A program made the translations under genes and the position numbers. Below the pieces are notes generated by a model. It saw only the letters and a list, made by a program, of their open reading frames with translations, did no database searches and was not told the DNA's origin. A stretch of 64,000 bases of DNA from a virus. Lineage: Duplodnaviria; Heunggongvirae; Uroviricota; Caudoviricetes. Shown piece by piece: positions 42,868-62,777 of this stretch; position 1 is the stretch's first letter; each line of letters starts with the position of its first letter. The stretch spans positions 49,317-113,316 of the IMG/VR virus record IMGVR_UViG_3300038968_000013; one strand, written 5' to 3'.

Positions 42868-43223
42868 ACCAACACCCACGCCAGGAAGAAGTAGGTCAGC
42901 GCATGAAGGTACTGATCGAACCCCAGCAAGATCCAGAACCACTCGCTATTGTTCGGCAGTAAGCCGTAATGCGCACCAACGTTCATCTTGGCCCAATCGA
43001 TGTGGTAGTGAGCTACCCCGTCGACCACCATCGACAACATAGCGAGCGTCACGCTATCGCAGCACGAGAGCACAACCCAGAACGTTGCCAGCGCATGCAG
43101 CCCCGCGTGGAGAATTCCGCCAGGGTGACCGTACGTACCCTTATTGGTGTACATGTACGGATGCGCCTGCATCGGAAAGTCCACGATGAAATGCTTCGTG
43201 AATAGCCAGAAGAGTAGCGTCAT
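42864..43223 (-). CDS. polytopic membrane protein, His-rich
   Basis: 119 aa with 3-4 hydrophobic helices. Confidence 0.4.
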   Translation of the reverse strand: MTLLFWLFTKHFIVDFPMQAHPYMYTNKGTYGHPGGILHAGLHALATFWVVLSCCDSVTLAMLSMVVDGVAHYHIDWAKMNVGAHYGLLPNNSEWFWILLGFDQYLHALTYFFLAWVLV

Positions 43224-43954
43224 TAGCCCTCCATCCCCATGTCATACCCCGGATGATCCGGAATCAGGCTACCGAGATATGCTCGGTCCTGCGTGAAAAC
43301 CGGAGGACACCCATTTGTTCCCCAACCATGCGACAGGCACTCGCGCCAATACTGCTGCACACGACCGCGACGAAAGCCTTCCGGATGATTGTTCCAGTTG
43401 TCACCCTTCGCGTGAATCATGTCGTGTAGGTCGGGCGACTTCTTCCCGTGCAGTTCCTTGTGCGAGTAGTAGTGCTGCGCCAGCATCTGCAGGGAATTGC
43501 GTTCCGCATCCTGCTGCCGCCAGATGAAGTAGTTCATGACCTCGGTGCGATCTGGGATCACGAACACGCGCGCATCGAAGACAGCCGCCATGTCGACGCC
43601 CCAGCACCGGTTGAACGCGACCGATGCCGTTGCCGCCGCGATCGAGCACATTTTCTGCAGGTTGCCGTCGAACCACGCGTCGGTCTGAATCGAGTCGAAG
43701 TCCGTCAGGAGTAGCGAGATTTCGTCCGACTGCGTGAAGGCGAATTGGGTACCCTGAATGCTTTTGCAGAGCGCCAACGCGGTGACGTCCATCGCGTTCA
43801 TGAAGCCCTTATCGTATGGCTTCTCCATGTGACGAGTCAGCGTGTGAAACGCTTTCCCGTCGACACGGATGACGGTGTAGGTGCGCCGAGGAAGGGAAAT
43901 GCGGTACCGATCTTCGTACTGCTCCTTCATGCGATCACCTAGCGAGTCAGGCAT
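43223..43954 (-). CDS. tRNA-His guanylyltransferase (Thg1-like protein)
   Basis: YEDRYRISLPRRTYTVIRVDGKAFH, EKPYDKGFMNAMDVTALAL and AFTQSDEISLLL align with the Thg1 family blocks (..VVRLDGRGFH.., ..KPNDERALNLMN.., ..YGYSDEYSFVF). Confidence 0.65.
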   Translation of the reverse strand: MPDSLGDRMKEQYEDRYRISLPRRTYTVIRVDGKAFHTLTRHMEKPYDKGFMNAMDVTALALCKSIQGTQFAFTQSDEISLLLTDFDSIQTDAWFDGNLQKMCSIAAATASVAFNRCWGVDMAAVFDARVFVIPDRTEVMNYFIWRQQDAERNSLQMLAQHYYSHKELHGKKSPDLHDMIHAKGDNWNNHPEGFRRGRVQQYWRECLSHGWGTNGCPPVFTQDRAYLGSLIPDHPGYDMGMEG

Positions 43955-54582: not shown

Positions 54583-54711
54583 TTACTGTCCTCCCATCCC
54601 TACGATGATGTACTTGAAGTAAGCCGCGCCCGAGATAAACCCGAGCGCGACTCCCACACCCACCGCCACCCCAAACACCACCGACCGAAAAAACGTCTTT
54701 ACGTTGTCCAT
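54583..54711 (-). CDS. small membrane peptide
   Basis: MDNVKTFFRSVVFGVAVGVGVALGFISGAAYFKYIIVGMGG. The start overlaps the SPFH gene stop codon. Confidence 0.3.
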   Translation of the reverse strand: MDNVKTFFRSVVFGVAVGVGVALGFISGAAYFKYIIVGMGGQ

Positions 54712-55796
54712 TACTGTGCCTGCTTCAAGTCGACCATGGGCATCGCGGGACCGGAGACGAGGGAGAGTTTTCCATCCCACTTCCGAATACGTTCCCACTC
54801 GACCAGTGTCGGCGTGATTGACTTGGCGAGGATTTCGTTTGCTTGTGCCTCGGCCTTGGCGCGGATCAGCTGTGCATCGGCTTGTCCTTGAGCGAGCGCC
54901 TTAGCCTGGTCACCCTCGGCTTGCTTGGCGCGCACCATGTTCTCGGCTTGGATTGCAGCCTGTGTCGCGGCGATAGCCTGGTTGACTGCCTGCATGACCT
55001 TATCGTCGACCCGCAGTCCCGAGACGAAGGCGAACGATTCCACCTTGATACCGTCCGGTGCCATACGAGTCTGCAGCTCCTTGAGCACGTTGGCCTCTAG
55101 CTCGCGGCGCCCTTCTCCGAGAATGAGCATCGTGTCCATCGTCTGGCCATAGTGGGCCACGATGTCACGAATCTGAGAGCGCATGTATGTGTGTGTGATG
55201 CGTCCGATGTCCTGGCGGAACTTCACGAAGAGCTGCGGAATCTTCTCCGGTTCCAGCGAGTAGGCCAGGAAGACGTCGGCGTTCACGAGGCTCGACTGCT
55301 TCGAGTTGAACGTGATGCTCTCGTCGCCGGGGGACTCTGGGGTATCGTCCTTGGTGAATACCTGCTGCTGCAGGAAGATCGGGAACAGATGAATCTCGGT
55401 CTTGAAGGGGTTGTACACCTGAATGCCAGTAACGGCAGTCGCGTTAGCAACGCCCTTATCTGAGCCCCAGAGGTTCACCTTGACGCCTACGTAGCCAGGC
55501 GGCACCCGTGTATATCCACAGCCGCTACCTGTCAGCAGAAACGCGGACAGCGCCAGCGGCAGCAGCACGGCGGGGAACGATACCTTACCCACGTTCTCGG
55601 TGAGCCAGGCGAATCCCATGTAGAGTAGCGTCGCGGCCAGCATGAAATCGGCCAGACACACGAGCAGCCCAAAGATAGCGAGGAACGTGCTCTTCGCGGA
55701 CCACATTTCGATCCCGAGCGTCCACACCCCCACGACCACGAGTAGCGCGCAGATGACGCTACCTACGACTTGAACGAGAAACCGCAATCCACTCAT
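54711..55796 (-). CDS. SPFH/band-7 (flotillin/HflK-like) membrane protein
   Basis: N-terminal TM helices followed by an SPFH-like core, then an Ala/Gln-rich coiled-coil tail (AQAENMVRAKQAEGDQAKALAQGQADAQLIRAKAEAQA). Confidence 0.65.
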   Translation of the reverse strand: MSGLRFLVQVVGSVICALLVVVGVWTLGIEMWSAKSTFLAIFGLLVCLADFMLAATLLYMGFAWLTENVGKVSFPAVLLPLALSAFLLTGSGCGYTRVPPGYVGVKVNLWGSDKGVANATAVTGIQVYNPFKTEIHLFPIFLQQQVFTKDDTPESPGDESITFNSKQSSLVNADVFLAYSLEPEKIPQLFVKFRQDIGRITHTYMRSQIRDIVAHYGQTMDTMLILGEGRRELEANVLKELQTRMAPDGIKVESFAFVSGLRVDDKVMQAVNQAIAATQAAIQAENMVRAKQAEGDQAKALAQGQADAQLIRAKAEAQANEILAKSITPTLVEWERIRKWDGKLSLVSGPAMPMVDLKQAQ

Positions 55797-55822
55797 ACCA
55801 TCCTCCCCTTATTGTACTCGGT

Positions 55823-57544
55823 TTACTTAGCCTGCATTCGATACCGCAACTCCGACTCGTGCTGACTTCTCAGCGCGGTAAGGACTTGCGCAGAGTCGAT
55901 TGGAGTGTATAGCTCCCGAACCATGGCGACTCTTTCGTCCCAGCTGCGACTACGAAACGCCTCTGGCTTTTCGTACCATTCTTCGGGCACGTCGAAATCG
56001 CTAGCATTCGCGAGTACCGTATCGATAGTGTTTTTGATTGAACGTCCGGTGAAGTGTTCACTTTGCTTCCTGAAATCCTCGCACTCCATCCCGAGGTCGA
56101 GCCACGTATCCGCCATGTCAAAAGCGGGAGCCTTGTGCTTCGTCTGCGCCCTACGTGGACGGGACAGTGGCTCGTATCTCGTTGATGGAATCTTGACGAT
56201 ACCCTGTTTGGTGGCTTTGCGCAAGAGGAGCGCGATCAGATCCGCGTAATCCTCTGGCGTCTCCGGTCCCATGACTGGAAAGCGCGCGACGAATCGCTGA
56301 CGGAGAGCCGCGTCGGTGGCGGTCGGAGCATTCGTGGCTGCAATTGTGATGTATGAGCCCGAATAGGCTGAACCGACACCAGAGAAGAAATCCATCAGCC
56401 CCTTGAGAATGTCACGATCGCCGCCACCCATGCCGGGAGAGGAACGATCGCCACCCGCGAAGAGCAGATCCACGTCGTCGAGACACATGATCGAGAGACG
56501 ACCCGGATCTCTCAGGTCGTTCAGTAGATCATTTAGAAGCGTAGCTGTTTTGCCATACCATTCCGACTTCACGTCCGATGCACCCAGCGACTTGAAGTAG
56601 GTTGGCATACCGATTTGGTCAGCGCGACGCTGTAGCAGCGTCATCGCCATCCTCATGATACTGCTTTTACCAGTGCCCGGAGGTCCGTCCAGGAGGATGC
56701 TTTCGAGAATACCCCCCATTTCACAAAATGGATTCTTCCCGAGCTGTGGGTCGTAGCACGCGAGACGATCCATTTGCCGCCTGAGCTGTAGTACCGCAGC
56801 GTCGTTGCCGACGATCTCTTCCGGTTGAACCGGGACAAAGGAAACACTTGTAGCATCTTTTGCTTTCTCTACCGTTGTTCCCGTGATGGTGAACTTCTGG
56901 TATCGGAAGGTGACTTGATCGAGAGACGATCCGAGTGTCTTATGAGCACGGGCTTTAATCCGAGCTTGTTCAGCAACCCAGCTCCAGTAGTCGCGAGAAA
57001 TACTAAGCTCGTCGCCAACGATATGGACGATAGGATTGCCGTGCTGATCTTTTGCTTGAATGGCATCGATGTACCGTGCAAGGCAAAGCCCGAGGTCGCC
57101 GTCGATAGATCCACGGATATCTAGCTTCAGGATGCTTGTGTCGAGAGTTGCGAATTGACCTTCCCGACGTCGCAGCAGGCGAGCCGCTTCCACTTGAATG
57201 AAGCTCGCTGCTACGAACGTCGAGTAGGCAGAAATGAATGCTGCGCGTTCTTGAATCTCCGGAGAGATAACGCCACCGCGTGCTTGAAGCTCTTTGGCAG
57301 CCTCGCGCTGCCCGGTGCGTTCCATCAGATGGTCCACGAACCAGTAGTAGAAGCACACGGCTTGCCGAATGAGGAAAACGAGAGCCATTTCCTCAGGCAG
57401 GACTCGCCAGGTCTCTTGTGGCGAGAGGTCTTTCAGAATGTCTTCGAGGTCGCGTTCACCGTCGATCTTGGAGAGCGCCCGTTCGGCGGTCGCAATCCAC
57501 TTATCGAGGTCTTCAGCCTTGATGGGGAGGGCTTCGCGTTCCAT
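55823..57544 (-). CDS. AAA+ ATPase (classic-clade AAA domain) with ~330-aa N-terminal domain of unknown function
   Basis: Walker A LLDGPPGTGKSS, Walker B IMCLDDVDLL and sensor/Arg-finger region IAATNAPTATDAALRQRF. Confidence 0.7.
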   Translation of the reverse strand: MEREALPIKAEDLDKWIATAERALSKIDGERDLEDILKDLSPQETWRVLPEEMALVFLIRQAVCFYYWFVDHLMERTGQREAAKELQARGGVISPEIQERAAFISAYSTFVAASFIQVEAARLLRRREGQFATLDTSILKLDIRGSIDGDLGLCLARYIDAIQAKDQHGNPIVHIVGDELSISRDYWSWVAEQARIKARAHKTLGSSLDQVTFRYQKFTITGTTVEKAKDATSVSFVPVQPEEIVGNDAAVLQLRRQMDRLACYDPQLGKNPFCEMGGILESILLDGPPGTGKSSIMRMAMTLLQRRADQIGMPTYFKSLGASDVKSEWYGKTATLLNDLLNDLRDPGRLSIMCLDDVDLLFAGGDRSSPGMGGGDRDILKGLMDFFSGVGSAYSGSYITIAATNAPTATDAALRQRFVARFPVMGPETPEDYADLIALLLRKATKQGIVKIPSTRYEPLSRPRRAQTKHKAPAFDMADTWLDLGMECEDFRKQSEHFTGRSIKNTIDTVLANASDFDVPEEWYEKPEAFRSRSWDERVAMVRELYTPIDSAQVLTALRSQHESELRYRMQAK

Positions 57545-57663: not shown

Positions 57664-58772
57664 TCGTGCCGTACGCCTTCGTGAGCCTCGCGCTCGACGT
57701 CCGCAAACTCTTTGAGGAAGTCGTTGACGTGACCGGTAAGCTGTTGCAGCAGCTCCCGCGAACGCTCTGGGCTGATTGCCGCGTGCTTGAGGCGCTGTGC
57801 CGCGATTTCGAGTGCCGCTCCTGCCACCGCCACGTTGTGATCCGTGATCACTTCCACGGAACGGTTGAGCGCAGGATCGACCGCCTGGTAGCGTTCCAGC
57901 TGAGCGCGCGCACGCACTGCCGTCATGGAGTTTTCGAGCACGACGGCCAGGTTCTGCCACTTCTCCAGCAGGTTCCGACGCATGCCGTGAACCGACTCGA
58001 TGGAGAGCGCAGCTGCATCCTTCGACTTCTGCAGCGTGGGGATGGCGCGCTGAGCCTCGGTGACGATGGTAATGAATTCCATCACGTCGAGACGCACCTT
58101 CTCCAGGTCACGCTTCAGAGCTTCGAATTCGGCTTCCTTCGCGGGCCGATCCTTCTGCTCGATGGTTCCGGACTTCAGCTCCAGGTCGAGCGCATTGTAG
58201 CGCCCTTCCAGCTCTGCTCTGCGCTGTTCCGCTTGGAGTTGACGCGGGGTCGCTTCCTTGAGCTTGGACAATACGGTATCGATGCTCTTCCCGTACGACT
58301 CGACGTTGGACACGTACTCCGCTTCTACCGTCCCCAACTTCTCGATCGTCTCCTGCACGAAGGTCTCGACTTCGCGACACGCCTCTTCGACCGAGGCAGT
58401 GTCGAGCCGCGAAACACGGAGCGCCTGAGCCTTGTTCATCGCCTTGTCGGAGAACTGCCCGAGGAACGCCAGGGTCTTTTCCTTGACGCCCCGGAATTCG
58501 CCCGACCGCGCGATTTGCAGCCCGATGGCCTCGATGCGCTGAATCACGTCAGAGCACAACGCCCGAAGCTCCTGCTCCATGGCGGCGCCCTTCTCGTGTG
58601 CGTCGGCCAACTTCTGGCTACCGTGCGTGACGCGTTGCTTGCCCTGCTTGACCTCGGTGGCTTGCCGTTCCTGCTTGATGTCCAGGTCCGAAATCACCGT
58701 GTCGTTCTGCAGCGATTCGCGGATAGCTGCCCGCCCGGTACGCTGCGCCGTTTGTTCCCTCACTTGCGCCAC
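57660..58772 (-). CDS. all-helical coiled-coil protein (TelA/YaaN-like?)
   Basis: 370 aa. GTG start with a GGAGGTGG RBS. Long heptad-like Glu/Arg/Leu-rich segments. The family assignment is tentative. Confidence 0.45.
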   Translation of the reverse strand: MAQVREQTAQRTGRAAIRESLQNDTVISDLDIKQERQATEVKQGKQRVTHGSQKLADAHEKGAAMEQELRALCSDVIQRIEAIGLQIARSGEFRGVKEKTLAFLGQFSDKAMNKAQALRVSRLDTASVEEACREVETFVQETIEKLGTVEAEYVSNVESYGKSIDTVLSKLKEATPRQLQAEQRRAELEGRYNALDLELKSGTIEQKDRPAKEAEFEALKRDLEKVRLDVMEFITIVTEAQRAIPTLQKSKDAAALSIESVHGMRRNLLEKWQNLAVVLENSMTAVRARAQLERYQAVDPALNRSVEVITDHNVAVAGAALEIAAQRLKHAAISPERSRELLQQLTGHVNDFLKEFADVEREAHEGVRHE

Positions 58773-58799
58773 TGTGCCACCTCCGTTTGATAGTATGCG

Positions 58800-58925
58800 A
58801 ACATGTTGTTTGTGACCATCTTTTTACCGGTGCTCTAACACTGAGCTACTTCCACATGTGGAAGGCTGGACTTTAACCAGCGACCCCCGGTCCTTCATGA
58901 GAACAGTCAACAGTCGGCTCGCAAG
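58800..58925 (-). ncRNA. Y RNA-like permuted tRNA mimic, E1
   Basis: Reading 5' to 3' on the minus strand, in order: leader GCGAGCCGAC, anticodon-stem 3' strand ACCGG, variable loop GGGTC, T-arm GCTGG TTAAAGT CCAGC, acceptor 3' strand CTTCCAC-A, a 1-nt link, acceptor 5' strand GTGGAAG, TA, D-arm GCTC AGTGTTA GAGC, A, and anticodon-stem 5' strand CCGGT. The 7-bp acceptor and 5-bp anticodon stems are perfectly complementary between the two halves. Confidence 0.5.
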
Positions 58926-59109
58926 CCGTTAACATTGGTCCCGATGCCGTGGACACAACCCCCGGCTCTCCCGCACCAACGCGGTTGTTCTGTGTACATG
59001 TCGGGCTACACCGAATCGTGCTGCCCCGGCCGGGTCAACAGCAGAGATTCATCTGGCAGACATTTAACCAACACGGTCTAGTTTCTGAACTACATCGGGA
59101 AAAGAAAAA

Positions 59110-59246
59110 GCGAGCATGTAGCTTCTTTGAGGAGTGTATTTTTGACGGTTGCTCTACCAACTGAGCTACATTCTTGGTTGCCCTTGAATGGCTGGATTCG
59201 AACCAGCGACCCACTGTGTGTGATAACCCTCAAACGTTCGGCTCGC
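59110..59246 (-). ncRNA. Y RNA-like permuted tRNA mimic, E2
   Basis: Same order as E1. T-arm GCTGG TTCGAAT CCAGC, acceptor halves CATTCAA / AAGAATG (5 of 7 bp) joined by a GGGCAACC loop, and D-arm GCTC AGTTGGTA GAGC. Leader GCGAGC pairs with trailer GCTCGC. Confidence 0.5.
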
Positions 59247-59328
59247 GAAAAATGACCCCGAAGTCATGCTAATTATGCATGAATACTCAGCCTCGATGAG
59301 CATCGGGGAGAGAAGCTGTTTCAAAAAG

Positions 59329-59411
59329 TACCGGTGACAGGATTCGAACCTGCAAGAGTTTCCCCTACTAGTTCCTAAGACTAGCGTGTACGCCAATGCC
59401 ACCTCACCGGC
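59329..59411 (-). tRNA. tRNA-Leu (TAG), class II
   Basis: Manual fold. Acceptor GCCGGTG/CACCGGT, anticodon arm CTAGT CTTAGGA ACTAG, a 13-nt variable arm and T-arm GCAGG TTCGAAT CCTGT. Collinear with E. coli tRNA-Leu. Confidence 0.6.
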
Positions 59412-59421
59412 AAAAAGAAAG

Positions 59422-59531
59422 TGGGTAGGGGTGGAGTTGAACCACCAAGTAAGCTCTCAAGTAGGCATACTCAACTAGTATTTTCAGCCCACCATCCAGC
59501 TATTCTCTGTACAACAAATGTACACCTACCC
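59422..59531 (-). ncRNA. 110-nt tRNA-like RNA (perfect 7-bp acceptor + T-arm, ~35-nt extra internal sequence)
   Basis: 5' GGGTAGG ... GGTGG TTCAACT CCACC CCTACCC A 3'. The D-arm is a 4-6 bp palindrome (G)TGTACA..TGTACA. No canonical anticodon arm could be placed by hand. Confidence 0.35.
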
Positions 59532-59595
59532 ATAGTCTCGGACAACGGATTGCGGTCTCACTGTACCGCGCTTAATCCCCGAGCTTAAAACGGTT

Positions 59596-59650
59596 GGGGC
59601 CAGGCTGGATTCGAACCAGCAGAGAGGGATGGCAAATCCCCCACGAACTG
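59596..59650 (-). ncRNA. tRNA-like 3' module (anticodon-like hairpin GGGGA TTTGCCA TCCCT + T-arm GCTGG TTCGAAT CCAGC + CTGGCCC)
   Basis: No matching 5' acceptor strand either upstream or downstream. It shares a GCTGGCAAAA submotif with E4. Confidence 0.3.
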
Positions 59651-60100
59651 AGCGGATCAAAGCGTGCAAGCTTTTGCCAGCTCAGCGACACTACCCGGTC
59701 TAGACTTCCTCAGCCCGCCGCCATTGCCAACCATGCGACTTACTGACCCCAGAAAACTAACCACGAACATAAAAGTGAAGAGCGAGCTGTCAGCTGGGTA
59801 CCCTTGATCTACTCGTACCGCCCCATTGATGCGAAGGCTTATCAGCTTCGTAGAGGGTATCACCCCAGGTGACTTGTCATCCATCTTACACCCCGGATGC
59901 ATAGGTGTGCTGCCTTCATCGGTGGACCTGACCTTTTCACTACTCAGTTAAACGTTGTTTCGAGGGCGCCTTGTCCGGTCTCCCCCTGGCTTTTTTATCA
60001 AAGTAGAGAACACTCTTCGATTGGCTCGTGGTTCTTGTCCCAGCAATCCTACCCCTCAGTGTGCTAATGAGTCTCAGATCTCAGCCGGGACCAAAACTAT

Positions 60101-60235
60101 ATACCCTGAACGTATGGGCGTCGATGCGGTTTAACGCTCTGCCATTGAGCTAACTCTGCAGGTTAGTGCAGAGCCTGGGACTCGAACCCAGATCTTTCGA
60201 TTATCATTCGAGAACACACCAACAGTCGGCTCAGG
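60101..60235 (-). ncRNA. Y RNA-like permuted tRNA mimic, E3
   Basis: Leader GTTTCACCCTGAGCCGACTGTTG..., T-arm CTGGG TTCGAGT CCCAG, acceptor 3' strand GCTCTGC-A, loop CTAACCT, acceptor 5' strand GCAGAGT, TA, D-arm GCTC AATGGCA GAGC. Head ACCCTGA pairs with tail TCAGGGT. Confidence 0.45.
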
Positions 60236-60284
60236 GTGAAACTTAGATTGTCAAAGAACAAGGTGGAGAACGAGTTACAGAAAG

Positions 60285-60365
60285 CAGGGATTAGTGGGAT
60301 TTGAACCCACATCAGCCGGTTTTTGCCAGCTTCGTCATCCAGTAGCGATAACCCTGCCTAGTTCG
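60285..60365 (-). ncRNA. tRNA-like module E4 (shared leader + T-arm GTGGG TTCAAAT CCCAC)
   Basis: Leader GAGAGCCGAAC matches those of E1-E3. The tRNA-like features are incomplete. Confidence 0.3.
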
Positions 60366-60380
60366 GCTCTCCGGATCTTT

Positions 60381-61043
60381 TTACAGCGCCACTTCGCGTG
60401 GCGTGTGAACTGACGGCATCGTAGCACCGATGGATGGCTTTGTCAAATCCTGATGCTTTGCCATCCAATCCTGCACGAACCAGAGCTGTCCACAGCCGCC
60501 GCCGATGTCGTCCTGTCCCGCAGGATCGAAGCAGCGCACCGAGTACCCGATCGTCTTCATCATGTCCATGAAGTTGGTCGCGAGGGTCCGCTGACGATGA
60601 TTCGCCGCAGCCACGCTCTCGTCCCGCTCACAGATGACGCTGATCGTTGCTTCCCACGTATCCGGGTGAAACAAGCGGCGCAGGTTGTTGACGTCCTGCC
60701 ACGATACGTTACCCGGATGCGCGCAGTAGTTGAAGAACGGGCGGCGCCCGGTGACGTTGTAGAAGCGATTGCCTTGGTACGCGATCTGCGCGAGGTTCAG
60801 CTTTGCCTTGAACGGAATGAGCTGATCGCGCTTCTCGTCGGTGCTCTCATGAACCGAGAATTGCAGCCCGATGGTAGGAATCTTCCGCGCCGCTTCCATG
60901 ATCGGGTCGTAATCGACGTCCGGAGCACTCGTGGAAATGAGCAGCGAGAAGTTCGGGTAGAGGAAGTACAGGTACTCCATCGCCCTGATCAGTTCCTTTT
61001 GGTTGAGCATTTGTTTACACCAATTGTAAGTAAGATAACCCAC
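60381..61043 (-). CDS. hypothetical protein downstream of rsr
   Basis: 220-aa ORF. No motif recognised. Confidence 0.4.
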   Translation of the reverse strand: MGYLTYNWCKQMLNQKELIRAMEYLYFLYPNFSLLISTSAPDVDYDPIMEAARKIPTIGLQFSVHESTDEKRDQLIPFKAKLNLAQIAYQGNRFYNVTGRRPFFNYCAHPGNVSWQDVNNLRRLFHPDTWEATISVICERDESVAAANHRQRTLATNFMDMMKTIGYSVRCFDPAGQDDIGGGCGQLWFVQDWMAKHQDLTKPSIGATMPSVHTPREVAL

Positions 61044-61160
61044 TACCCGGTCGGCTCACCGTATGCCGTTATGTCTGAGACGCGAACATGTAGACGCCTA
61101 GGGCTGTTTTCATTTAGGCAATGGTAACCCTAGAGCTATCGGCTCGCGCGTATCTTGTCG

Positions 61161-62777
61161 TTACAGACCCTTCGCGAACTCCGAGATTAGCTGCGGGGTG
61201 GCAGTGTCGAAGCCCACCACGTCGAGCTGACCCGGATCGTTTGGATCTGCGATGGTGAAGTTGGTCGCAGTCATGCCGACCGTTACCATCTTGCAGTCCT
61301 TCTTGTTCATGCGCGTACGGAACTGGCGCAGAGCAGTGCTCGCGTGCGTGTTCCCGGCCCAAACCTCGTTGTCCGTGATGATCACGAAGCAATCGACGTC
61401 GAGGCTATGCTGCATCGCGTACTTCATTGCGACCGCACCGTCCGTACCACCGAAGTTGGCGTCCTGAGCAGCGCGCGCAGCATCACGGAGCGACATGCCC
61501 GGATGGATACGAAGATCCTTGAAGTGATGCGCGAATCCACCGATGAAATAGTTGCTCTCGGTGTTTGCGATCACGAGCGCCATTGCTGCTGCGCCGATGC
61601 ACGGAGTCAGACCCGGCACGCCCGCGATGCTGCCGCCCGCCATCGAGCCCGAGACGTCGACTCCCAGGAAGAAGTTCTTCCCGGTCGGCTCGACCGCCTT
61701 GAACGCGAGGTAGAACGCCTCGTCGAGGGCCTTGACCACCTTCTGCGAAGGTGTCCAGGTCTTGGACATGTCGCGGGCACCACGCCCCGCCGCGTACGTC
61801 AGGTTCGCAGCCAGGATCTGAATCGGATGCACACGGCCCTTGATGATCGCGTCCTGGTTGCCCAGAAGCTTCACGATGTCCTTCTCGGCCTGCGACAGCG
61901 GCTTCAGCAGTCCGACACGCGTCATGGTCGCCAGGTTGCGGATGACCATGGTGATCCCGCCCGTCGACAGCAGCGCCTCCCAAACCTCTGGAGCGTTCAG
62001 CAGCTGCGTCGGGATGATCTCGCGCGGCAGGTTGAAATCGGTGATCAGCTGCACCGCAGTCTTCACGTCGGCCTTGGTAGCCCCCGTGATTGCCTGCATG
62101 ACACGCGCACCCTCGATCATGTCCGGACCCTTGGTGAAGTCTTCCTTCTTCAGGGCGAACTCGAAGACAGCACGGCGCATAGCATCGTCGGTCTTCGGAT
62201 GCGTCAGACGCAGGAGGTCACGATGCGACCAACCGTCACGCTGCTGGTACTTCACGACCTGCAGTGCCAGCTTGTCGACCGGCTTGGCAAGGTACCAATC
62301 ACGCACCGCGTTCTTCAGCGCACGACCCCAGCCACGATACTGGCGGGCGAAGGCGATGAAATGGAACAGATGCGTTCCAGTACGCGCGACCTTGTGCAGA
62401 TTGGCGAGCGCGTAACGCTTCACGTCGTCGCTACCCTCGGAGGCAGCGTATGCCAGTGCCAGCAGCGCCGGATCGTTCTTCGGCGCGCGACCGTCCTGCG
62501 AAATCTGGACGATCTCGTTGACGAGACGCATGCCATCCTCCAGGAGGCACGCCTTGACGGCGTTCAGGCTCTCCTTGGTGTGCTGGCGCTGGTCAGCGTA
62601 GTACGTCCCACCCTCGGTGCCGAGGATCAGGAAGCGACGCAGATGCATCCAATGCCCGGTGGCAAAAACGTAACCACCCGCATGGTTCTTCACCTGGCGC
62701 GCGTCCAGCGGCTCCGACTCCGGAACCGGCTTCGAAATCTCGTTCAGTAGATAGCTTCCCTTGCGTCCCATCGTCAT
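61161..62777 (-). CDS. rsr: Ro60/Rsr ortholog (TROVE domain + C-terminal vWA/MIDAS domain)
   Basis: GGYVFATGHWMHLRRFLILGTEGGTYYADQRQ...ISQDGRAPKNDPALLALAYAAS aligns with the N-terminus of the Ro sixty-related protein (..RFLILGSEGGTYY..RAPKND). GVDVSGSM is a MIDAS motif. Confidence 0.85.
   Translation of the reverse strand: MTMGRKGSYLLNEISKPVPESEPLDARQVKNHAGGYVFATGHWMHLRRFLILGTEGGTYYADQRQHTKESLNAVKACLLEDGMRLVNEIVQISQDGRAPKNDPALLALAYAASEGSDDVKRYALANLHKVARTGTHLFHFIAFARQYRGWGRALKNAVRDWYLAKPVDKLALQVVKYQQRDGWSHRDLLRLTHPKTDDAMRRAVFEFALKKEDFTKGPDMIEGARVMQAITGATKADVKTAVQLITDFNLPREIIPTQLLNAPEVWEALLSTGGITMVIRNLATMTRVGLLKPLSQAEKDIVKLLGNQDAIIKGRVHPIQILAANLTYAAGRGARDMSKTWTPSQKVVKALDEAFYLAFKAVEPTGKNFFLGVDVSGSMAGGSIAGVPGLTPCIGAAAMALVIANTESNYFIGGFAHHFKDLRIHPGMSLRDAARAAQDANFGGTDGAVAMKYAMQHSLDVDCFVIITDNEVWAGNTHASTALRQFRTRMNKKDCKMVTVGMTATNFTIADPNDPGQLDVVGFDTATPQLISEFAKGL

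What the first reader, a model, noticed from the sequence alone, without database searches (positions are those of the whole stretch)
58800..58925. E1: circularly permuted tRNA-like gene (3' half - 1-nt link - 5' half)
On the minus strand a T-arm and acceptor 3' strand (CTTCCAC-A) are immediately followed by a perfectly complementary acceptor 5' strand (GTGGAAG), TA, and a canonical D-arm. The anticodon-stem 5' strand (CCGGT) sits at the 3' end of the element. Its perfect partner (ACCGG) sits at the 5' end, before the variable loop GGGTC. No 5' half exists upstream, and downstream the element runs straight into the RBS of the next gene, so tandem ordinary tRNAs cannot explain it. The fold is a tRNA with its acceptor end closed into a hairpin and its anticodon loop opened.
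Basis: seen in the sequence. Interest (0 to 1): 0.8.

Follow-up and report, generated by a model that had tools for sequence, protein, structure and literature searches.

The report
Phage Y RNA with tRNA-like module
The "circularly permuted tRNA" is real, but it is the tRNA-like head of a YrlA-type Y RNA, a known class of small RNA that partners the Ro60 protein, and it is one of at least five such RNAs encoded just downstream of a phage Ro60 gene.

Summary
On the minus strand, 58891-58826 reads AC-stem 3' strand, variable loop, T-arm, closed 7-bp acceptor hairpin, U8-A9, D-arm, AC-stem 5' strand. Rotated, ARAGORN calls it a tRNA.

It is not a free-standing permuted tRNA gene. The module sits on two further helices (P1, P2) formed by the ends of a 128-nt RNA (58923-58796). 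P1 carries the GAGC-CGA Ro-binding-type motif.

- A Ro60/Rsr gene (TROVE plus Ro60 vWA domains) lies 2.2 kb upstream on the same strand.
- Rfam's best match is YrlA, at 40.4 bits and E 2e-5 for the whole window. That is below the gathering score, as for every other phage copy tested.
- Orthologues in two related metagenomic phages keep all 34 base pairs, 16 of them through changes on both sides. The 19:56 elbow pair covaries too.
- A model built from E1 finds full-length matches beside Ro genes in seven other phage loci.

The literature already describes YrlA RNAs as resembling circularly permuted tRNAs with closed acceptor stems, including in phages. Verdict: a new, unannotated member of a known kind. 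The points of modest interest are the array of at least five Y RNAs, a 7-bp acceptor stem that may be an RNase P substrate, and a non-canonical elbow pair.

The parts
58796..58923 (-). P1 is UGCGAGC/GUUCGCA. The motif is GCCGACUG. P2 is UGACUG/UGGUCA. A large internal loop follows, then the tRNA-like module.
   Evidence: Fold. Rfam YrlA 40.4 bits, E 4.4e-7. Orthologue alignment with 34 of 34 pairs kept and 16 compensatory. CM self-hit boundaries 58796-58923.
58826..58891 (-). tRNA-like module of E1, 66 nt: AC stem (ACCGG/CCGGU), V loop GGGUC, T-arm, closed 7-bp acceptor-like hairpin (CUUCCAC-AU-GUGGAAG), U8-A9, D-arm, A26.
   Evidence: Sequence. The rotated sequence is called a tRNA by ARAGORN. 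The tertiary-contact nucleotides are present and the 19:56 pair covaries.
59110..59246 (-). Y4: a second full YrlA-type Y RNA. P1 is GCGAGC/GCUCGC. The Ro motif GCCGAACG is an exact match. It has a V hairpin with GGUUAUC and canonical T and D loops. A UUUUUCUUUU run follows at 59109-59100.
   Evidence: Rfam YrlA 35.9 bits. CM R1 86.9 bits. Orthologue L016 2765-2901 has a different acceptor stem.
60103..60237 (-). Y3: a third full YrlA-type Y RNA. P1 is ACCCUGAGC/GUUCAGGGU. It has a 7-bp acceptor hairpin plus T and D arms.
   Evidence: Fold. Rfam YrlA 26.5 bits. CM R1 51.4 bits, E 5e-11.
60265..60372 (-). Y2: a Y-type RNA with P1 GGAGAGC/GUUCUCC, motif GCCGAAC and a T-arm only (YrlB-like).
   Evidence: Sequence and fold. 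Stem census.
61080..61149 (-). Y1: a minimal Y-type stem-loop 12 nt after the Ro stop codon. P1 is GCGCGAGC/GUUCGCGU and the motif is GCCGAUAG. It has no tRNA module (YrlB-like).
   Evidence: Fold. Census. CM R1 30.4 bits, matching through P1/P2 only.
61161..62777 (-). Ro60/Rsr orthologue, the predicted protein partner. The database copy starts two codons later and is 536 aa.
   Evidence: Pfam TROVE 2.2e-42 and vWA_Ro60 8.5e-49. NCBIfam RNA-bind_Rsr E 1.7e-167. P0001 100% identical.
59328..59411 (-). tRNA-Leu(UAG), embedded in the RNA cluster between T2 and Y4.
   Evidence: ARAGORN and Rfam. Conserved in L016.

Best explanation
E1 is a phage-encoded Y RNA of the YrlA type. The 5' and 3' ends of a ~128-nt transcript pair to form P1 (with the G-A-G-C / C-G-A bulged-helix motif) and P2. 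This is the module that binds the ring-shaped Ro60 protein encoded 2.2 kb upstream. The distal end folds as an L-shaped tRNA mimic (T-arm, closed acceptor-like hairpin, D-arm, 5-bp anticodon-stem equivalent). In this family that end is the effector-binding module.

By analogy with characterised Ro60-Y RNA particles, the RNA gates the Ro60 cavity. It also tethers Ro60 to a host factor, either PNPase or a protein that recognises the tRNA elbow, to redirect host RNA surveillance and decay during infection.

E1 has a 7-bp acceptor stem with A at the discriminator position and U at -1, like M. smegmatis YrlA. It is therefore plausibly cut by host RNase P in the hairpin loop and CCA-tailed, giving a two-piece RNA held together by its helices.

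Shown here: the anatomy, the homology to YrlA, the selection on every helix and on the elbow pair, and the linkage to Ro60. Inferred: Ro60 binding, the effector, RNase P processing, and the biological role.
For: 1. Anatomy: the fold gives terminal stem, internal loops and a three-way tRNA-like module. The rotated module is called a tRNA.
2. Family match: YrlA is the only Rfam family hit besides tRNA in the whole window. It hits three times, all in the cluster next to Ro.
3. Partner gene: Ro60 with TROVE, vWA_Ro60 and NCBIfam Rsr matches lies on the same strand, 2,238 nt upstream. That is within the 4 kb used to define YrlA loci (PMC4201824).
4. Orthologues in L016 (Ro 89% identical) and L015 (Ro 65%): 34 of 34 pairs and 102 of 102 cells are paired, and 16 pairs changed on both sides. 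Slid controls give 30-41% paired and 0-2 such pairs.
5. The tertiary 19:56 elbow pair covaries: U19:A56 in the window, A19:U56 in L016 and L015, G19:C56 in all canonical copies.
6. A CM built from E1 finds full-length matches beside Ro/TROVE genes in seven other phage loci (L001-L003, L005, L007, L008 and L015/L016 paralogues). It finds none in the two fetched regions without a Ro gene nearby that were tested as such (L004; L009-L013). Real tandem tRNAs score only 22 bits. Over 25 sequences, 94.8% of cells pair and 29 of 34 pairs are compensatory.
7. [quoted passage not shown] A crystal structure shows the tRNA L-shape and the C:G elbow pair. Phage phiLo Ro60 binds phage Y-like RNAs through a CGAA bulge and engages host PNPase.
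Against: - The Rfam score (40.4 bits) is below the YrlA gathering score of 69. The model's middle helix is deleted in E1.
- The Ro motif is imperfect in E1 (GCCGACUG, one mismatch to GNCGAAN0-1G) and in L015 (GCCGCUUG). It is exact in L016.
- E1 lies downstream of Ro with an ORF and other RNAs in between, whereas in the other phages examined the Y RNAs sit just upstream of Ro.
- No promoter or terminator could be assigned to E1. It abuts the RBS of the next gene.
- There are no expression, binding or processing data. Comparative support for E1-specific features rests on only three orthologues.
Confidence: 0.85

Rival explanations
1. A genuine circularly permuted tRNA gene. The transcript would be circularised and re-opened at the acceptor end to yield a functional decoding tRNA, as in Cyanidioschyzon merolae.
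For: The gene order (3' half, short link, 5' half) and a perfect tRNA once rotated. Wang et al. note the resemblance of such pre-tRNAs to YrlA.
Against: - The sequence flanking the AC stem shows no conserved U33 or purine-37 anticodon-loop pattern in the three orthologues (AAAAAGA / AAAAAUA / AUAAUGA on the 3' side).
- Those flanks instead run into P2 and P1, which are kept by covariation. No bulge-helix-bulge junction is evident.
- The element belongs to a 25-member family that is always next to Ro60.
- The tRNA-splicing endonuclease pathway this route needs is not known in bacteria (general knowledge).
Confidence: 0.02
2. A decayed remnant of two adjacent tRNA genes (3' half of one, 5' half of the next), with no function of its own.
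For: Phage tRNA clusters are common, and a tRNA-Leu lies 400 nt away. Chen et al. warn that dimeric tRNAs can mimic YrlA hits. The proposed origin of YrlA is a tRNA dimer.
Against: - The acceptor 'halves' are complementary to each other. They stay complementary while changing at 6 of 7 pairs across the orthologues, as do the AC-stem halves and P1/P2.
- A real tandem tRNA pair scores 22 bits with the E1 model, against 40-87 bits for independent Y RNAs.
Confidence: 0.03
3. A cis-acting element of the neighbouring genes: a structured 5' leader or processing signal for the downstream ORF, or a terminator for the upstream unit.
For: E1 and both orthologues end 11-20 nt before an RBS. Y4's closing stem is followed by a U-run. 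The CcrColossus homologue's 3' end is annotated as a terminator. An RNase P cut could define mRNA ends.
Against: - The genes downstream of the three orthologues are unrelated to one another.
- The same RNA type occurs in arrays and upstream of Ro in other phages.
- The conserved elbow tertiary pair has no role in a simple leader or terminator.
- This reading could coexist with the Y-RNA function instead of replacing it.
Confidence: 0.07
4. A two-piece (circularly permuted) tmRNA gene.
For: Permuted order, with the T-arm and acceptor 3' strand ahead of the acceptor 5' strand.
Against: - ARAGORN, which models permuted tmRNA, finds none.
- There is no Rfam tmRNA hit.
- The third acceptor pair is G:C, not G:U.
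- A canonical D-arm is present.
- There are no pseudoknots and no tag reading frame.
Confidence: 0.01

Closest known systems
YrlA of Salmonella Typhimurium (Rfam RF02553; crystal structure of the tRNA-like domain, Wang et al. 2018)
   Same: Same topology: terminal Ro-binding stem, anticodon-stem equivalent, T-arm, closed acceptor stem-loop, D-arm. The same tRNA tertiary-contact nucleotides are present (U8:A14, G15:C48, U54:A58, G18, a 19:56 pair). Encoded within a few kb of Ro60/Rsr.
   Different: E1 has a 7-bp acceptor stem (6 bp in Salmonella) and a short class-I variable loop with no V hairpin. It lacks the middle helix of the Rfam model, and its elbow pair is U19:A56 instead of G19:C56. 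It is phage-encoded, sits downstream of Ro and is not in an rtcBA operon. It scores below the Rfam gathering threshold.
YrlA of Mycobacterium smegmatis (Chen et al. 2014)
   Same: A 7-bp acceptor-like stem. That RNA is cleaved by RNase P in the hairpin and the 5' fragment is CCA-tailed. It occurs together with a second, simpler Y RNA (YrlB) that carries only a T-arm, processed from one precursor.
   Different: Processing of E1 is untested. E1's hairpin loop has only 2-4 nt. The gene order relative to Ro is reversed. The window has five or more Y RNAs instead of two.
Yrl1/Yrl2 of Thermus phage phiLo with phage Ro60 (NAR 2025, PMC12135203)
   Same: Phage-encoded Ro60 plus several phage Y-like RNAs with a 5'-3' stem and a CGA(A) bulge. 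It offers a plausible functional model: a RYPER-like complex with host PNPase that attenuates PNPase.
   Different: The passages I read describe those RNAs as stem-bulge-stem Y-like RNAs lying upstream of Ro, with no tRNA-like module mentioned. E1 carries a complete tRNA mimic.
Circularly permuted tRNA genes (Cyanidioschyzon merolae and other algae; one archaeon)
   Same: The 3' half precedes the 5' half. The acceptor end is initially closed, and the anticodon stem is formed by the transcript ends.
   Different: Those are processed into decoding tRNAs through circular intermediates. E1 has no anticodon-loop sequence, continues into conserved Ro-type helices, and belongs to the Ro-linked Y RNA family.
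Deinococcus radiodurans Yrn1
   Same: A bacterial Y RNA with tRNA-like T (and partial D) features that tethers Ro60 to PNPase.
   Different: The orientation is opposite. In Yrn1 the loop between the arms is in the anticodon position and the acceptor end leads to the Ro stem. E1 has the YrlA orientation.

Membership tests
YrlA-type Y RNA (Chen et al. 2014; Rfam RF02553) | Encoded close to (within about 4 kb of) a Ro60/Rsr orthologue | tested here: met
   Ro60 ORF at 61161-62777(-) with TROVE, vWA_Ro60 and NCBIfam Rsr matches. The E1 5' end is 2,238 nt downstream on the same strand.
YrlA-type Y RNA (Chen et al. 2014; Rfam RF02553) | The 5' and 3' ends pair into a terminal stem | tested here: met
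   P1 (7 bp) and P2 (6 bp) are 100% paired in three orthologues, with 3 compensatory pairs in each helix. P1 is 91.5% paired over 25 family members.
YrlA-type Y RNA (Chen et al. 2014; Rfam RF02553) | Ro-binding motif GNCGAAN0-1G at the 5' side of the stem | tested here: inconclusive
   E1 has GCCGACUG (one mismatch). The L016 orthologue has GCCGAACG (exact), L015 has GCCGCUUG (two mismatches) and sister Y4 has GCCGAACG (exact). GAGC-CG is invariant.
YrlA-type Y RNA (Chen et al. 2014; Rfam RF02553) | tRNA-like module in the order T stem-loop, closed acceptor stem-loop, D stem-loop, with tRNA-type conserved nucleotides | tested here: met
   The T, acceptor and D helices are 100% paired in the orthologues. 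U8, A9, A14, G15, G18, A21, A26, G46, C48, U54, U55, A58 and G53:C61 are all present, and 19:56 is kept as a Watson-Crick pair by covariation.
YrlA-type Y RNA (Chen et al. 2014; Rfam RF02553) | Reaches the Rfam gathering score (69 bits) | tested here: not met
   40.4 bits. All other phage Ro-linked copies tested also fall short, at 26-42.5 bits. The threshold therefore excludes phage members generally, not E1 in particular.
YrlA-type Y RNA (Chen et al. 2014; Rfam RF02553) | Physically bound by Ro60/Rsr; T and D loops modified by TruB and DusA | not testable with these tools
   Requires RIP or EMSA and modification mapping.
Circularly permuted tRNA gene (decoding tRNA after processing) | 3' half upstream of 5' half, joined by a short linker | tested here: met
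Circularly permuted tRNA gene (decoding tRNA after processing) | Transcript ends can rebuild a 7-nt anticodon loop (U33, anticodon, purine 37) at a processing junction | tested here: not met
   The flanks of the AC stem are not conserved as a loop. They lead into the covarying P2 and P1 helices.
Two-piece (permuted) tmRNA | tRNA-like domain with G3:U70, a tag reading frame and pseudoknots; detected by ARAGORN or Rfam | tested here: not met
   No tmRNA call. The third acceptor pair is G:C. No tag ORF.
Canonical tRNA | Contiguous cloverleaf with an anticodon loop | tested here: not met
   Not called by ARAGORN or the Rfam tRNA model in native order. It is called only after artificial rotation and insertion of a loop.

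The most novel reading that the evidence does not exclude
The E1 lineage (7-bp acceptor stem, A73-like base, U at -1, a complete set of class-I tRNA tertiary contacts, but an A:U or U:A elbow pair) may be a processed, split tRNA mimic. Host RNase P would cut the hairpin and the CCA-adding enzyme would tail it. The result would be a Ro60-bound RNA with a free tRNA-like acceptor end, which could be charged or could dock onto tRNA-handling or tRNA-targeting host factors. On this reading, the array of five to eight Y RNAs with different heads (none, T-arm only, full tRNA mimic, altered elbow) gives one phage Ro60 a panel of adaptors or decoys for different host RNA-decay, repair or anti-phage tRNA-nuclease systems.
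Probability: 0.1. Interest if true: 0.6.

Novelty: new member of a known kind. Interest (0 to 1): 0.3.

Why it matters
This is a correct rediscovery of the tRNA-mimic anatomy of YrlA Y RNAs in an uncultured tailed phage with no close relative in the deposited phage collection. Its value is mostly for annotation.

- Phage Y RNAs are missed by Rfam's gathering threshold.
- They were left unannotated in every public phage record examined. One had only its 3' end marked as a "terminator", and one is probably mis-called as a tRNA.
- The locus gives a compact natural series of Y RNAs with graded tRNA-likeness beside a single Ro60 gene.
- Within that series, the E1 lineage swaps the elbow base pair while keeping it paired.
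- The series could help identify what the tRNA-like module binds, which is still an open question for this RNA family.

Tried and rejected
- Megablast of the locus against deposited phages found no match.
- Exact look-up of the 538-aa Ro ORF found nothing, because the database copy starts two codons later. A single-protein scan of IMG/VR found nothing either.
- An IMG/VR scan for E1's exact T-arm returned six contigs. All hold non-permuted tRNA-like elements, not E1 relatives.
- Two further pattern scans returned nothing: the Y3/Y5 5' signature, and the permuted T-arm-to-D-arm pattern with the UUAAAGU loop.
- The promoter/terminator scan gave nothing assignable to E1.
- The raw count of GAGCCGA in the window is not above chance. 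Only its clustering together with stem closure is informative.
- Relaxed and intron-tolerant ARAGORN runs on the cluster gave mutually inconsistent calls, so I did not use them.
- The supplementary tables of Chen et al. listing the phage YrlAs are not held.
- The permuted-tRNA, tandem-tRNA-remnant, tmRNA and pure leader/terminator readings were considered and rejected, as set out under the rival explanations.

Full report
**1. Observation**

- The module runs from ACCGG (58891-58887) through GGGUC, the T-arm GCUGG-UUAAAGU-CCAGC and CUUCCAC.
- It continues through A-U, GUGGAAG, UA, the D-arm GCUC-AGUGUUA-GAGC and A, to CCGGU (58830-58826).
- The RBS GGAGG (58784-58780) and the GTG start at 58772 of a 370-aa ORF follow.
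- One slip: two nucleotides, not one, separate the 7-nt acceptor arms. CTTCCACA/TGTGGAAG is a 16-nt palindrome.

ARAGORN and Rfam's tRNA and tmRNA models do not call the locus in its native order. The 5' half and the 3' half were rotated and joined with each of five arbitrary 7-nt loops. Every construct was called a 75-nt tRNA. The tRNA-like anatomy is therefore real.

**2. What surrounds it**

A permissive Rfam scan gives YrlA (RF02553, "Y RNA-like") as the best family for E1.
- The match covers 58806-58901 at 40.4 bits, with E 4.4e-7 locally and 1.9e-5 for the whole 64-kb window.
- Two more YrlA hits lie upstream on the same strand, at 59123-59234 (35.9 bits) and 60115-60214 (26.5 bits).
- Nothing else in the window matches any of the 4,227 families except three tRNAs.

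The 538-aa ORF at 61161-62777(-) is a Ro60/Rsr orthologue.
- Pfam gives TROVE at 2.2e-42 and Ro60 vWA at 8.5e-49. NCBIfam gives RNA-bind_Rsr at 1.7e-167.
- The E1 5' end lies 2,238 nt downstream of its stop codon.

The window is a tailed-phage genome, with portal, large terminase and major head protein genes. It has no close DNA relative among deposited phages.

**3. E1 is larger than the tRNA-like module**

Folding 58795-58925 gives a Y-RNA architecture.
- The ends pair: UGCGAGC at 58923-58917 with GUUCGCA at 58802-58796.
- Further interrupted pairing and a large internal loop follow.
- The 5-bp stem ACCGG/CCGGU then carries the T-arm, the closed acceptor hairpin and the D-arm.

Reading 61200-59300 and folding the candidates shows the same closing design in four more RNAs on this strand. 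The design is 5'-NNN-GAGC-CGA..., paired with ...G(U/C)UC-NNN-3'.
- Y1 (61149-61080) is a minimal stem-loop that starts 12 nt after the Ro stop codon.
- Y2 (60372-60265) has a T-arm only.
- Y3 (60237-60103) has a full T/acceptor/D module.
- Y4 (59246-59110) has a full module, the motif GCCGAACG and a trailing U-run.

In a census, five such stems close with at least 7 bp, and Y4 closes with 6 bp, all inside 2.4 kb. Elsewhere in the window only one minus-strand site (inside the Ro ORF) and one of 15 plus-strand sites close. The chance closure rate is about 10%.

**4. Comparative evidence**

The closest Ro60 proteins are P0001, P0002 and P0003.
- P0001 is 100% identical. Its loci L017-L019 are identical to the window across the RNA region, so this is the same phage found in other samples.
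- P0002 is 89% identical and lies on the 3.3-kb contig L016.
- P0003 is 65% identical and lies on the 71-kb groundwater contig L015.

Both L016 and L015 carry arrays of GAGCCG-type RNAs downstream of Ro. Each array ends with an E1 orthologue just before an RBS: L016 2918-3061 and L015 8327-8459.

I aligned the three orthologues (A1) and scored the proposed six-helix structure.
- All 34 pairs form in all three sequences (102 of 102 cells).
- 16 pairs change on both sides: P1 3, P2 3, AC stem 2, T stem 2, acceptor 6 of 7.
- With the 3' partners slid by 1-3 columns, only 30-41% of cells pair and 0-2 pairs are compensatory.

The tertiary elbow pair also covaries.
- Canonical copies combine T-loop C56 with a D-loop GG.
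- E1 has UUAAAGU with AGUGUUA, giving A56:U19.
- L016 has UUUGAAU with AGCUGAUA, giving U56:A19.
- L015 has UUUAACU with AGUGAUA, giving U56:A19.

This is selection on an L-shaped tRNA fold, not on a string of hairpins.

**5. Family-level evidence**

With Rfam's YrlA model, five other Ro/TROVE-encoding phages show hits 10-900 bp upstream of their Ro genes.
- The phages are Gordonia Cashline, Mycobacterium Sparky and Tonenili, Microbacterium FuzzBuster and Caulobacter CcrColossus.
- The hits score 31-42 bits, below the gathering score like E1.
- None is annotated as an RNA in the records.

A covariance model built only from the three E1 orthologues gives the following.
- It recovers Y4 (86.9 bits), Y3 (51.4) and Y1 (30.4).
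- It finds full-length matches next to Ro in the other Ro-encoding phage loci except L006. Several are in tandem: four in a Mycobacterium abscessus prophage, up to four in CcrColossus and two in Cashline.
- It finds nothing in a Ro-less tRNA cluster (L004).
- A real tandem tRNA pair scores only 22 bits.

Over the 25 aligned sequences, 94.8% of cells pair and 29 of 34 pairs show changes on both sides, against 34-43% pairing when slid. That alignment is fitted to the model, so the slid control is the fair comparison.

**6. What is known**

- Chen et al. 2014 (PMC4201824) defined YrlA RNAs as Ro60-linked RNAs. They have a GNCGAAN0-1G Ro-binding motif and a tRNA-like domain made of a T stem-loop, an acceptor-like stem-loop and a D stem-loop. 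The paper reports them in 254 bacteria and 22 phages.
- In the same paper, M. smegmatis YrlA has a 7-bp acceptor stem. It is cleaved by RNase P and CCA-tailed in vivo.
- Wang et al. 2018 (bioRxiv 10.1101/312249) solved the domain. They found the tRNA L-shape and its tertiary contacts, including the T-loop C: D-loop G elbow pair. [quoted passage not shown]
- A 2025 study (PMC12135203) showed that a phage Ro60 binds phage-encoded Y-like RNAs through a CGAA bulge. It forms complexes with host PNPase that slow the enzyme.

**7. Mechanism**

Shown here:
- the RNA's architecture;
- its homology to YrlA;
- purifying selection on all helices and on the elbow pair;
- its genetic linkage to Ro60.

Inferred:
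- P1 and its C-G-A bulge bind the phage Ro60.
- The tRNA-like head recruits a host factor, either PNPase or an elbow-recognising tRNA-binding protein.
- The particle redirects host RNA surveillance or decay during infection.
- E1 and its orthologues keep a 7-bp acceptor stem, an A at the discriminator position and a U at -1. [quoted passage not shown]

The genes after the three E1 orthologues are unrelated. E1 is therefore the last unit of an RNA cassette, not a dedicated leader.

**8. Rivals**

- A true permuted tRNA gene is excluded. The "anticodon" flanks are not loop-like and continue into covarying helices.
- Tandem tRNA remnants are excluded by the compensatory changes.
- A permuted tmRNA is excluded by the ARAGORN and Rfam results, the G3:C70 pair and the absence of a tag ORF.
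- A leader or terminator role may coexist with the Y-RNA function but does not explain the conserved elbow or the Ro linkage.

**9. Verdict**

Features that go slightly beyond the textbook case:
- the size of the array (at least five Y RNAs here, about eight GAGCCG-type sites in L016);
- placement downstream of Ro;
- the very tRNA-like class-I geometry of E1;
- its non-G:C elbow pair.

Interest is modest.

Noticed in passing
window 59592-59750 (-); L015 8153-8279: T1 is a ~159-nt tRNA-like RNA. It has an 8-bp acceptor stem (GGGGUCAG/CUGGCCCC), a canonical T-arm (GCUGG-UUCGAAU-CCAGC) and the 3' tail A-ACC, but a long branched interior. Neither ARAGORN nor Rfam calls it. A counterpart in L015 keeps the acceptor stem and the T-arm, each with one compensatory pair, while the interior differs. 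Its identity is unknown.
   Followed up: partly
window 59422-59531 (-): T2 is a ~110-nt tRNA-like RNA just upstream of tRNA-Leu. It has a 7-bp acceptor stem (GGGUAGG/CCUACCC), a T-arm (GGUGG-UUCAACU-CCACC), a palindromic hairpin (UGUACA...UGUACA) in place of the D-arm, a long middle arm and a U-run. It is nearly identical in L016, so there is no covariation to use. It is not called at default settings.
   Followed up: partly
window 60381-61043 (-) and 61010-61060 (-); L016 1775-1877: A 220-aa ORF between Y1 and Y2 weakly resembles only the C-terminal half of the RlmN/Cfr radical-SAM RNA methyltransferases (NCBIfam Cfr E 2e-7, RlmN E 4e-6). It has no CxxxCxxC half. Its start overlaps the 5' half of a Y-type RNA (GGUGAGCCGACCGGG...) that is complete in L016. 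The ORF therefore replaced or interrupted a Y RNA in this phage.
   Followed up: partly
window 58924-59104 (-): A ~175-nt stretch between Y4 and E1 is absent from L016, where the two RNAs are only about 15 nt apart. It folds stably (-59.8 kcal/mol) and contains a GAGAGCCGG site with no matching closure. It may be a degenerate Y RNA or an insertion.
   Followed up: partly
window 43223-43954 (-): This ORF has a Thg1 (tRNA-His guanylyltransferase / 3'-5' polymerase) domain (Pfam PF04446, E 3.5e-28). Members of that family repair tRNA 5' ends. Together with Ro60, the Y RNAs and three tRNAs, it suggests the phage invests in tRNA and RNA maintenance.
   Followed up: no
L009-L014 (IMG/VR contigs): E1's exact T-arm (GCUGG-UUAAAGU-CCAGC) occurs in six viral contigs, in non-permuted tRNA-like elements. 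In some, the anticodon arm is replaced by a short hairpin (for example GCGGG-GCAA-CCCGC). In three, the acceptor stem is extended outward by flanking complementary sequence. This topology resembles the D. radiodurans Yrn1 orientation. I did not check whether Ro genes lie nearby.
   Followed up: partly
L008 3726-3861 (Mycobacterium phage prophiGD43A-5); L003 4978-5091 (CcrColossus): Public records leave these Y RNAs unannotated. In prophiGD43A-5 an annotated tRNA-Thr(tgt) overlaps the 5' part of the best Y-RNA match. It uses the Y RNA's V hairpin as its 'anticodon arm', so it is probably a miscall. Four Y-like copies sit upstream of that phage's Ro gene. In CcrColossus only the 3' end is annotated, as a terminator.
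   Followed up: partly
window 54711-57544 (-); L015 9624-10862: An AAA+ ATPase (573 aa) and an SPFH/Band-7 protein (361 aa) lie downstream of the RNA cluster. A Band-7 gene also follows the cluster in L015, so it may belong to a conserved neighbourhood.
   Followed up: no
window 62771-62777 (-): The longest Ro ORF (538 aa) starts two codons before the start used in the database copies (P0001, 536 aa). This is why the exact-sequence look-up of the 538-aa product failed.
   Followed up: yes
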